From: Naegleria gruberi
Taxonomy: Eukaryota
NCBI GenBank assembly: GCA_000004985.1
Contig: GG738846.1
Direction: 5' to 3' (one strand)
DNA: 64,000 nt
In this document: in pieces, positions 22,770 through 24,528 of the stretch
Numbering within the stretch: position 1 is the stretch's first letter
Layout: each line of letters starts with the position of its first letter
Translations under genes and position numbers: made by a program
The notes under the pieces: generated by a model
The model's database searches: none
Seen by the model: only the letters and a program-made list of their open reading frames with translations
What the model was told of the DNA's origin: nothing

Positions 22770-24528
22770 TTATTGAGAAATAGAACCCTTTTCAAATTGA
22801 TAGAGTGATTCTCTTTCGTGTGGCAAGAGGGTTGGGACAGTGGAGAAGTAATAATTGAATGGATAGTACAAGAGCAAAACAACGTCACTACAATATAAAT
22901 CGGCAAATCTTTGAATTTGAGTACTAAAGTATGATTCTCTTGTACCTGATCTGAATGTGCTTCCAAAGTATGAATTAAAGTGGGCATTGAGTTCTTCTTG
23001 GGCATTGGCAATTTGTTGCTTGATTGGGAATTCTTCAACATCTTTGTGACCATTGATAGGATAGGATGAATCAAGATTCTTAAAGCTTTCAGCTCTGATA
23101 TATTCCAATGTATGAACAGTGTTCCACATTTCACTTGATCTCTTTGTCATCCAATTTTTAGTTTCTTCTTCAACTTCTCTGACAATGAGGAGGGTTCTCC
23201 ATAGACATCTATTTTGTTTGGTAACAATGATATCGTGGAAAATATTGTCTCCCACGTATAAAACCTCAGAACCTTTAGTCTTGGTGAATTTCTTGAATAA
23301 ACCAAAAGAACCTCCACAATAAACGCTTCCTTTTTTGAACCCCTTAACTGCTGACAATTTCAAACTTCCAGTCGATTGATCCACTTCTCTCAAAGTTGAA
23401 CCTTCCTTAAAGAATTTTGGTTTTTGACCATTAGTAATAATGATATCAAAGAAATCAGTCCATCTTTCATAACCTTCAATAGATTTATCCAACAAGAAGG
23501 CCATAACTGCATTAGTATAAAAATATTCTGAATTGGTTAAGAGGAAAATCTTCTTTCCAGCCTTTCTCATTCTATCAAACAAGAGTGGAAGCCTATCATC
23601 CTTCTTGATATATTTAGCTAAATCAGACATGACTTCATTCTTTAAGCTATTATCACTATGAACACCATGGAAACATTCTCTGATATCATCAAAGAGAGAC
23701 CAATAAGAAAGTCTAGCTTCTTCACTACTGGTTTGTTCAGTACTATCAGAATCATTGCTGGTAGGACTTCCAGTTTCACTCTTAGCAAGGAAATTGGTTT
23801 GTTCAAAGTAATCAACAAGAGATGCATAGAGAGAGGCTTCTGGAATTCCGAAAAGGGTATCATAACAGAAATATCTCTTACCCATTTCTTCTTCATTGTG
23901 AATCAAGTGATCTGGATAGAATCGTTCATATTCGGATTTTTTAACAATCTTTTTACCATGAACACATTGCAAGATGAATCCATAGTGGTCAACCTTTAAA
24001 ATGTTGCCATATCTTTTATCTAGGAATGTACCTCTGACTGCAAATGATGGATCATAGGTAATATTGAGAACTTCGGATGGGTAACCTTTAGAATCAACAA
24101 GTCTTTGAAGGATCATTTTAGTACACATTGATTCAAAGACTGGAGAAATGTAATTCTATTATTGTTATTATTATTATTATATTAATATTGTAGATCAATT
24201 TTTGTTGATTAATTTGTTGTTATTTTGGTGGTGATGAATTTAGTGTGAAATTTATGAAAATGCATTCCCATTTAAATACTTACAGCACTTTAAAATGTTT
24301 AAATTGTTGTGTGAGATAAAATAATAATACTTACATTGTATAATCCATATCAAAGCCATAATATTCAATATTATCCAAATTAACAGTACGATTTACAAAA
24401 ATACGATGTTCAACTGGTCTTCTGTACTTTTCTGGGAGTTCATAATCTATGGAGGAATCTAACTTCTTCAACTCGGAACTAGAGACTGGAAAAGAGATTG
24501 GCAATGGTGTTTTTGGTGTCTTTGGCAT
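22770..24528 (-). CDS. Cytosolic purine 5'-nucleotidase (NT5C2/HAD 5'-nucleotidase family). Proposed structure: complement(join(22770..24155, 24284..24287, 24335..~24528)), i.e. two introns flanking a 4-nt micro-exon.
   Basis: Exon 1 ...[34 protein letters not shown] (cf. human ...[31 protein letters not shown]). Downstream ORF ...[27 protein letters not shown]...DPSFAVRG...YGNILKVD... (cf. ...[12 protein letters not shown]...). No single GT-AG intron restores the frame. Two introns around the micro-exon TGCT give [16 protein letters not shown]. Probable ATG at complement(24526-24528), MPKTPK.... Confidence 0.8.

What the first reader, a model, noticed from the sequence alone, without database searches (positions are those of the whole stretch)
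24156..24334. Candidate 4-nt micro-exon (TGCT) in the cytosolic 5'-nucleotidase gene
Exon 1 ends ...GFDMDYT + 'AT' before GTAAGTATT. No AG acceptor in the 179-nt gap reaches the downstream exon ([13 protein letters not shown]...) in frame. A 47-nt intron ending TTTTAAAG, then the 4 nt TGCT, then a second GTAAGTATT donor and a 128-nt intron ending AATAATAG gives [16 protein letters not shown]. This reproduces the universally conserved HAD motif-I context DMDYT(L)A(V)YKSPEYES of NT5C2 residue for residue. Both donors are the identical 9-mer GTAAGTATT. A 4-nt exon is at the extreme of what spliceosomes handle. Recursive or two-step splicing is an alternative mechanism.
Basis: partly seen in the sequence, partly recalled or inferred. 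Interest (0 to 1): 0.6.

Follow-up and report, generated by a model that had tools for sequence, protein, structure and literature searches.

The report
Conserved 4-nt coding microexon in Naegleria
A four-base exon (TGCT) flanked by two short ordinary introns sits in the catalytic motif of the Naegleria gruberi cytosolic 5'-nucleotidase gene; it is conserved across the genus, and gene annotation is correct in only one of the three sequenced species.

Summary
The window is Naegleria gruberi. The gene is a PF05761 cytosolic 5'-nucleotidase on the minus strand. Exon 1 (24528-24335) ends DMDYT+AT. No single GT-AG, GC-AG or AT-AC intron joins it in frame to NYISPVFES. Intron 1 (47 nt) + TGCT (24287-24284) + intron 2 (128 nt) gives [16 protein letters not shown], which aligns without gaps to human NT5C2.

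The same AG|TGCY|GTAAGT unit occurs in N. lovaniensis, N. fowleri and two environmental Naegleria lineages. One of these has the synonymous TGCC. The flanking introns differ in length and cannot be aligned. The deposited N. lovaniensis protein, from an RNA-seq-guided annotation, equals the microexon model exactly. The N. fowleri model skips the microexon and loses 18 conserved residues. N. gruberi appears to have no model for this gene.

Willaertia has only the downstream intron and Acrasis has neither, so the microexon probably arose by gain of an intron 4 nt upstream of an older one.

Exons of 1 nt are already documented in plants and fungi, so 4 nt is not the extreme. This is a new member of a known kind. 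I found no earlier description of one in Naegleria. A 9-mer (GGAATGCAT) conserved in intron 2 is an unexplained extra. No transcript evidence from N. gruberi was available.

The parts
24335..24528 (-). Exon 1 of the cytosolic 5'-nucleotidase gene. It runs from the ATG to ...GFDMDYT plus the first two bases (AT) of the Ile codon.
   Evidence: The N-terminus MPKTPKTP... is conserved in N. lovaniensis, N. fowleri, env L002 and Willaertia.
24288..24334 (-). Intron 1: 47 nt, phase 2, GTAAGTATT...TTTTAAAG. It is present in all Naegleria lineages examined and absent from Willaertia and Acrasis.
   Evidence: A heuristic census of the window suggests that candidate introns of 43-50 nt are common there.
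24284..24287 (-). The 4-nt microexon TGCT. It supplies the third base of the Ile codon (AT+T) and the Ala codon GCT.
   Evidence: It is TGCT in N. lovaniensis, N. fowleri and env L004, and TGCC (synonymous) in env L002/L003.
24156..24283 (-). Intron 2: 128 nt, phase 0, GTAAGTATT...AATAATAG. Its position is shared with Willaertia magna.
24260..24268 (-). GGAATGCAT, a 9-mer in intron 2 lying 15 nt downstream of the donor 9-mer. The same 9-mer is present in intron 2 of N. fowleri, N. lovaniensis and env L002. It is a candidate splicing element; its function is unknown.
   Evidence: a shared 9-mer arises in 1e-4 of shuffles. It is absent from the homologous Willaertia intron.
22770..24155 (-). Exon 3: NYISPVFES... 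to the stop codon (TAA at 22770-22772). It encodes the rest of the PF05761 domain.

Best explanation
The gene encodes a functional cytosolic (cN-II/NT5C2-type) 5'-nucleotidase. Its HAD motif I region is split by two canonical GT-AG introns that lie 4 nt apart, leaving a constitutive 4-nt coding exon, TGCT.

Exon 1 contributes AT. The microexon contributes T plus GCT. Exon 3 starts with AAT. The mRNA therefore reads ATT GCT AAT (Ile-Ala-Asn).

Both introns are short (47 and 128 nt here, 41-116 nt in relatives). I infer that each is recognised as a unit (intron definition) rather than through the exon.

The acceptor AG of intron 1 lies only 4 nt from the donor of intron 2. The two sites probably cannot be occupied at the same time, so the introns are most likely removed one after the other. 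The order is unknown. The invariant GTAAGT at donor 2 would give strong U1 pairing that makes up for the missing exon context (inference).

Skipping the microexon would shift the frame and reach a stop after 15 codons.

In evolutionary terms, the downstream phase-0 intron is older, because Willaertia shares it. The upstream phase-2 intron was most parsimoniously gained in the Naegleria stem, and that gain created the microexon.
For: - No single canonical intron works. The only frame-preserving options delete DMDYT or the conserved [18 protein letters not shown].
- The microexon model aligns to human NT5C2 without a gap across [16 protein letters not shown].
- It scores 172.1 bits on PF05761. 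The three alternatives score 162.6, 156.5 and 132.
- AG|TGCY|GTAAGT is conserved in 5 Naegleria lineages. Their flanking introns are 41-82 and 42-128 nt long and otherwise cannot be aligned.
- GCT to GCC in env L002/L003 is synonymous.
- The last two bases of exon 1 vary (AT, GT, CT) and give I, V or L, matching the family consensus.
- The deposited N. lovaniensis protein equals exon 1 + TGCT + exon 3 exactly. That annotation used RNA-seq hints (PMC6125883).
- An independent contig confirms the sequence.
- Chance is excluded by the shuffles.
- Willaertia has only intron 2. Acrasis has neither intron.
- Candidate introns of 43-50 nt are common in the window.
Against: - No cDNA or RNA-seq read from N. 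gruberi spanning the junction was available. No transcript-derived protein crossing the junction was found in the protein database.
- RNA-seq support specifically for the two N. lovaniensis junctions is inferred from the annotation method. I did not see it directly.
- Sequential splicing and intron definition are inferred from general knowledge, not shown here.
- The deposited N. fowleri model uses a different single intron. That model removes 18 conserved residues.
Confidence: 0.9

Rival explanations
1. There is a single non-canonical intron that starts one base later (UA...AG; window 24333-24156). The G of the apparent donor would be exonic, and the protein would read DMDYT-M-NYISP (V or L in the relatives).
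For: In all five lineages, the end of exon 1 plus that G gives an in-frame hydrophobic codon: ATG, GTG or CTG. The frame to exon 3 is then restored without a microexon.
Against: - It requires a UA-AG intron, while a perfect GTAAGT or GTAGGT donor sits at the canonical position.
- The product lacks the family-invariant Ala and is one residue short. It scores 162.6 bits against 172.1, and the gap-free alignment to NT5C2 would be lost.
- It does not explain why AG|TGCY|GTAAGT is conserved inside otherwise divergent intron sequence.
- It contradicts the RNA-seq-guided N. lovaniensis model.
Confidence: 0.03
2. There is a single GT-AG intron from donor 1 to an acceptor inside exon 3 (24334-24103), as in the deposited N. 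fowleri model. The protein would read [14 protein letters not shown].
For: This option is canonical and in frame. The equivalent model is deposited for N. fowleri as XP_044561878.1, and I verified that it corresponds to a single 224-nt intron.
Against: - It deletes 19 residues here (18 in N. fowleri). These residues stay in frame and stop-free, and are highly conserved among Naegleria, Willaertia, Acrasis and human.
- The Pfam score falls to 132 bits.
- The deleted stretch would not stay open and conserved if it were intronic.
- It could still exist as a minor isoform.
Confidence: 0.03
3. The locus is a pseudogene, or the gap contains an assembly or sequencing error that hides a simple intron.
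For: No N. gruberi protein model for this gene was found, although neighbouring genes are found exactly.
Against: - An independent ENA contig is identical through the region.
- The same architecture appears in four other independently sequenced lineages.
- Exon 3 is an intact 452-aa ORF, 78-83% identical to its orthologues.
- The HAD motif residues are all present.
Confidence: 0.01
4. The microexon is used in a regulated way. A substantial share of transcripts would skip it (donor 1 to acceptor 2), giving a frameshifted mRNA with a premature stop, so that inclusion controls enzyme level.
For: Skipping gives a stop after 15 codons (my reading of the sequence). A conserved intronic 9-mer lies next to donor 2 and could be a regulatory site.
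Against: No expression data were available. The microexon encodes part of the catalytic motif and has strong consensus sites in every lineage, which fits constitutive use. The conserved 9-mer fits a constitutive enhancer equally well.
Confidence: 0.12

Closest known systems
Ultra-short constitutive microexons of plants and fungi: the 1-nt exon of Arabidopsis APC11, the 1-nt exon of VPS55, the 15-nt-or-shorter plant microexon set, and the 1-nt exon of Fusarium CYP621A (PMC4674806, PMC8831610, PMC12940212)
   Same: - It is a coding exon of a few nucleotides flanked by two canonical GT-AG introns.
- It has a strong, conserved GTRAGT donor.
- It is conserved across species while the introns diverge.
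- It is routinely missed or mis-modelled by genome annotation, giving truncated or internally deleted proteins.
- Some relatives lack one or both flanking introns.
- Sequential removal of the two introns is the proposed mechanism.
   Different: - The host lineage is different (Heterolobosea, Discoba). I found no description of a microexon there.
- It lies inside the catalytic HAD motif I of a nucleotidase.
- The flanking introns are very short (41-128 nt).
- Those published cases have RT-PCR or RNA-seq proof. This one rests on comparative evidence and on one RNA-seq-guided annotation.
Recursive (ratchet-point) splicing with zero-length exons, as in Drosophila Ubx and long vertebrate genes (cited in PMC4674806)
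   Same: An acceptor and a donor lie next to each other, so the two halves must be removed stepwise.
   Different: At a ratchet point the sequence is AG|GTAAGT and nothing stays in the mRNA. Here 4 nt must stay to keep the frame. The introns are also tiny rather than very long.
Animal neuronal microexons (3-27 nt) dependent on intronic enhancers (SRRM4 and RBFOX, UGCAUG motifs). This comparison rests on my own knowledge.
   Same: It is a tiny exon with a conserved intronic motif just downstream. In N. fowleri and N. lovaniensis the motif even contains UGCAUG.
   Different: Those exons are alternative, tissue-regulated, preserve the frame when skipped, and sit in long introns. Here skipping breaks the frame and nothing points to regulation. 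No RBFOX or SRRM4 homologue was examined in Naegleria.

Membership tests
Cytosolic 5'-nucleotidase II / NT5C2 family (Pfam PF05761, HAD superfamily subfamily IG) | Full-length match to the PF05761 profile above the gathering score | tested here: met
   508 bits against a cut-off of 28.5. Residues 43-514 match profile positions 1-459 of 460.
Cytosolic 5'-nucleotidase II / NT5C2 family (Pfam PF05761, HAD superfamily subfamily IG) | HAD motif I DxDxT, in the family context DMDYT[LIVM]A.Y | tested here: met
   DMDYTIANY with the microexon. The alignment to human NT5C2 chain 5opl_A is gap-free across the motif.
Cytosolic 5'-nucleotidase II / NT5C2 family (Pfam PF05761, HAD superfamily subfamily IG) | HAD motifs II (T/S), III (K) and IV (DD-type). 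Assignment of these residues to the motifs is from my own knowledge of human cN-II. | tested here: met
   LLTNS (T273), K311 and GDNIFHD (D369, D374) are invariant in the Naegleria/Willaertia alignment.
Cytosolic 5'-nucleotidase II / NT5C2 family (Pfam PF05761, HAD superfamily subfamily IG) | IMP/GMP 5'-nucleotidase activity | not testable with these tools
   This needs an enzyme assay.
Ultra-short coding microexon (15 nt or less) | Flanked by a canonical acceptor AG and donor GT, each belonging to an intron of workable length | tested here: met
   TTTTAAAG|TGCT|GTAAGTATT, with introns of 47 and 128 nt. Candidate introns of 43-50 nt are common in the window.
Ultra-short coding microexon (15 nt or less) | Needed to keep the reading frame and the conserved protein sequence | tested here: met
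Ultra-short coding microexon (15 nt or less) | Conserved in orthologues while the flanking introns diverge | tested here: met
   Five Naegleria lineages, one with a synonymous change.
Ultra-short coding microexon (15 nt or less) | Both junctions present in mature mRNA | not testable with these tools
   No transcript spanning the junction was found. The only support is indirect: the RNA-seq-guided N. lovaniensis model equals the microexon model.
Zero-length recursive splice site (ratchet point) | Acceptor directly abutting a donor (AG|GTAAGT), with no nucleotides kept in the mRNA | tested here: not met
   Four nucleotides separate the AG from the GT. Joining exon 1 directly to exon 3 is out of frame.
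U12-type AT-AC intron | Donor /ATATCCTT and a matching branch site | tested here: not met
   The only AT-AC option that keeps DMDYT and most of the downstream sequence (24336-24150) starts ATGTAAGT. It deletes four residues and scores 156.5 bits. A second such option (24336-24081) deletes far more of the conserved sequence.

The most novel reading that the evidence does not exclude
The conserved intron-2 element GGAATGCAT may be a dedicated cis element for microexon splicing. It is shared by three independent Naegleria lineages and is absent from the homologous Willaertia intron, which has no microexon.

It could act as a protein-binding enhancer for donor 2. Alternatively, it could pair through UGCAU with the donor 1 junction (AU|GUA; 5-6 bp in four lineages by my own hand check). 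That pairing would mask donor 1 until intron 2 is removed, which would set the splicing order and prevent skipping.

If so, this would be the first microexon-specific splicing element described outside animals and plants.
Probability: 0.2. Interest if true: 0.6.

Novelty: new member of a known kind. Interest (0 to 1): 0.4.

Why it matters
- It restores a complete, catalytically plausible 5'-nucleotidase gene to N. gruberi, where no model seems to exist.
- It shows that the deposited protein of the human pathogen N. fowleri (XP_044561878.1) lacks 18 conserved residues directly after the catalytic motif. This matters for anyone using that protein for drug-target or structural work.
- It extends ultra-short microexons to Heterolobosea (Discoba). 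That supports the view that the spliceosome's ability to handle exons of a few nucleotides is general among eukaryotes, not a plant or animal speciality.
- The Naegleria / Willaertia / Acrasis series gives a clean example of a microexon created by intron gain next to an existing intron.
- The conserved 9-mer gives a concrete element to mutate.

Tried and rejected
- **Single-intron options.** I enumerated every single GT-AG, GC-AG and AT-AC intron around the gap. None keeps both DMDYT and NYISPVFES.
- **More loci.** Two metagenome scans for further Naegleria-like loci found nothing.
- **Transcript evidence.** A profile search with the N-terminal 117 residues returned only genomic ORF fragments for Naegleria, such as P0132 ending DMDYTM.
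- **Failed look-ups.** The look-up of the shorter Willaertia isoform P0003 failed; the longer isoform P0125 worked. The look-up of an arthropod orthologue, P0045, failed.
- **RNA structure.** MFE folds of the five pre-mRNA segments showed no shared structure.
- **Literature.** Searches for Naegleria plus microexon or micro-exon gave only irrelevant hits. The Naegleria pangenome paper gave no intron statistics.
- **Identical donors.** I considered whether the two identical donor 9-mers in N. gruberi point to a duplication. The other species have GTAGGT at donor 1 and GTAAGT at donor 2, so the identity is specific to N. gruberi and fits the local donor consensus.

Full report
**Origin of the window.** Four long ORFs of the window are exact matches to Naegleria gruberi RefSeq proteins on a 1,001,995-bp scaffold. 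The window has about 33% G+C.

**The gene.** It lies on the minus strand. The spliced product is 527 aa and matches Pfam PF05761 (5' nucleotidase family) end to end at 508 bits. Human cytosolic purine 5'-nucleotidase NT5C2 is the best solved relative.

**Check of the observation.**
- Read on the minus strand, exon 1 runs from the ATG at 24528 to 24335 and ends ...YYGFDMDYT plus AT.
- The following 179 nt (24334-24156) contain only five GT and four AG dinucleotides.
- The simple intron 24334-24156 is out of frame.
- I enumerated all GT-AG, GC-AG and AT-AC introns in the region. Every frame-preserving option removes either DMDYT or the conserved block [18 protein letters not shown].
  - intron 1 is 47 nt (GTAAGTATT...TTTTAAAG);
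  - TGCT lies at 24287-24284;
  - intron 2 is 128 nt (GTAAGTATT...AATAATAG);
  - the product reads [16 protein letters not shown].
- The two donor 9-mers are identical.
- Only 0.075% of shuffles of the gap give any frame-restoring microexon with a GTRAGT donor. None of 20,000 gives one encoding x-Ala.
- An independently assembled ENA contig (L010) is identical over exon 1, intron 1, the microexon and all but one base of the part of intron 2 that it covers. A sequencing error is ruled out.

**Protein-level test.**
- The microexon model aligns to human NT5C2 without a gap through [19 protein letters not shown].
- For the N-terminal part of the protein (185 aa in the microexon model), the PF05761 scores are:

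| Model | Bits |
|---|---|
| Microexon | 172.1 |
| UA-AG intron, one residue shorter | 162.6 |
| AT-AC option | 156.5 |
| Single intron of the type deposited for N. fowleri | 132 |

**Comparative test (the main evidence).** I retrieved the orthologous loci.
- N. lovaniensis (L001): ACAGT|GTAGGT..82 nt..TTAG|TGCT|GTAAGT..101 nt..AAAG|AATTAT.
- N. fowleri (L006): ACCAT|GTAGGT..51..TCAG|TGCT|GTAAGT..116..ATAG|AATTAC.
- An environmental Naegleria lineage found in two samples (L002, L003): ACCAT|GTAGGT..41..GCAG|TGCC|GTAAGT..45..ATAG|AATTAC.
- A second environmental lineage (L004): ACACT|GTAAGT..46..ATAG|TGCT|GTAAGT..42..CAAG|AATTAC.

In all five lineages the spliced reading is DYT-[I/V/L]-A-NYISP. 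The microexon change TGCT to TGCC is synonymous for Ala. Outside the splice sites and the four bases, the introns differ in length and cannot be aligned.

**State of the annotations.**
- The deposited N. lovaniensis protein (KAG2387311.1 / XP_044551303.1) equals exon 1 + TGCT + exon 3 exactly. The two introns account for all 183 non-coding bases of that gene model. That annotation was made with BRAKER1 using RNA-seq, and the paper reports a median intron length of 80 bp (PMC6125883). The microexon is therefore already present in a public annotation, probably through spliced-read hints. I did not see those reads.
- The deposited N. fowleri protein (KAF0977165.1 / XP_044561878.1) reads DMDYTM|LVESK. 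I verified that it corresponds to a single 224-nt intron that swallows the microexon and 18 conserved residues.
- For N. gruberi, no protein 90% or more identical was found among 5.8 billion sequences, although neighbouring genes are found exactly. The gene appears to be unannotated.

**Origin of the microexon.**
- Willaertia magna, the closest relative outside Naegleria among the hits (69% identity), has ACC ATT GCT|GTAAGTATT..57 nt..ATATAG|GTA TAT. This is only the downstream phase-0 intron. The deposited model is reproduced with that intron plus another 43-nt intron upstream.
- Acrasis kona has neither intron.
- Two amoebozoans have a different intron, in the Phe codon before DMDYT.
- The most parsimonious history is this: an older phase-0 intron after the Ala codon was shared by Naegleria and Willaertia, and a phase-2 intron was later gained 4 nt upstream in the Naegleria stem.
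- An animal contig (L011) has a phase-1 intron one base downstream of the Naegleria/Willaertia site. I note this without interpreting it.

**Mechanism.**
- Shown here: two canonical GT-AG introns lie 4 nt apart, donor 2 is an invariant GTAAGT, and both introns are short.
- Inferred from general splicing knowledge and from the discussion in PMC4674806: the introns are recognised by intron definition. Because the acceptor of intron 1 and the donor of intron 2 are too close to be occupied together, the two introns are removed one after the other.
- The order is unknown. For the 9-nt potato invertase exon, the downstream intron is reported to be removed first (PMC4674806).
- Skipping the microexon would shift the frame and reach a stop after 15 codons.
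- A heuristic census of the window suggests that candidate introns of 43-50 nt, several of them ending AAAG, are ordinary in N. gruberi. These candidates were not validated.

**An unexplained extra.**
- Intron 2 carries GGAATGCAT a short distance after the donor hexamer: directly after it in N. fowleri and N. lovaniensis, and 10-13 nt after it in N. gruberi and env L002. Env L004 has TGAATGAAT instead.
- A 9-mer shared by three independent lineages arises in 1e-4 of shuffles.
- The Willaertia intron lacks it.
- MFE folds show no common structure.
- By my own hand check, UGCAU can pair with the donor 1 junction AU|GUA (5-6 bp in four lineages). This is weak evidence, and I offer it only as a lead.

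**Comparison with what is known.** Exons of 1-15 nt are documented and are known to be widely mis-annotated in plants (PMC8831610). Constitutive 1-nt exons have been shown experimentally in Arabidopsis APC11 (PMC4674806) and reported in Fusarium (PMC12940212). A 4-nt exon is therefore not at the limit. It is not a zero-length recursive site, because the 4 nt must be retained. It is not a U12 intron either. Literature searches found no description of microexons in Naegleria.

**Verdict.** This is a real, conserved 4-nt coding microexon and a new member of a known kind. Its practical value is in correcting the N. gruberi and N. fowleri annotations. Its modest conceptual value is a clean example of microexon birth in Discoba, with a candidate cis element to test. 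The main gap is the lack of direct transcript evidence from N. gruberi.

Noticed in passing
L006 3486-3709 (N. fowleri, GCA_008403515.1 VFQX01000035.1): The deposited N. fowleri 5'-nucleotidase model (XP_044561878.1, 613 aa) uses one 224-nt intron. That intron removes the microexon and 18 conserved residues (IANYISPVYESMCTKLILQR becomes M). The model also carries a 96-aa N-terminal extension that is absent from the other Naegleria proteins.
   Followed up: yes
window 22770-24528 (-): No N. gruberi protein model for this gene was found in the protein collection, while neighbouring genes are present exactly. The gene seems to be missing from the reference annotation, possibly because of the microexon.
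   Followed up: partly
window 24260-24268 (-); L001, L006 and L002 intron 2: GGAATGCAT is conserved in intron 2 in three independent Naegleria lineages (1e-4 of shuffles) and is absent from the homologous Willaertia intron. Its UGCAU core is complementary to the donor 1 junction AU|GUA. In N. fowleri and N. lovaniensis the motif contains UGCAUG.
   Followed up: partly
window 24315-24334 (-) versus L007 about 2404-2421: N. gruberi intron 1 starts GTAAGTATTATTATTTTATC. The Willaertia intron, at the intron 2 position, starts GTAAGTATTATTAATATC, so the first 13 nt are identical. This may be just AT-rich donor consensus, or it may hint at how intron 1 arose.
   Followed up: no
L011 419-600 (Logan ERR13905320 contig, animal NT5C2-like): An animal orthologue has an intron GCA G|gtatg...tgcag|TG TAC. 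It is phase 1 and lies one base downstream of the phase-0 Naegleria/Willaertia intron. This is a near-coincident intron position in a very distant lineage.
   Followed up: partly
L008 about 800-850; L009 about 900-975: The Planoprotostelium and Cavenderia orthologues share an intron in or next to the Phe codon just before DMDYT. Neither has an intron after the Ala codon.
   Followed up: partly
L004 and L010 (both from ENA sample ERZ929261, run ERR1078381): One sample labelled as a metagenome contains a contig identical to the N. gruberi window and also a second Naegleria-type copy of the same gene, whose protein (P0002) is 83% identical to the N. gruberi product. Two Naegleria genotypes or species seem to be present in that sample.
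   Followed up: no
L007 2290-2332 (Willaertia magna): Willaertia has an extra 43-nt intron near the Ile codon of HRI|FVNR. The Naegleria genes lack it.
   Followed up: partly
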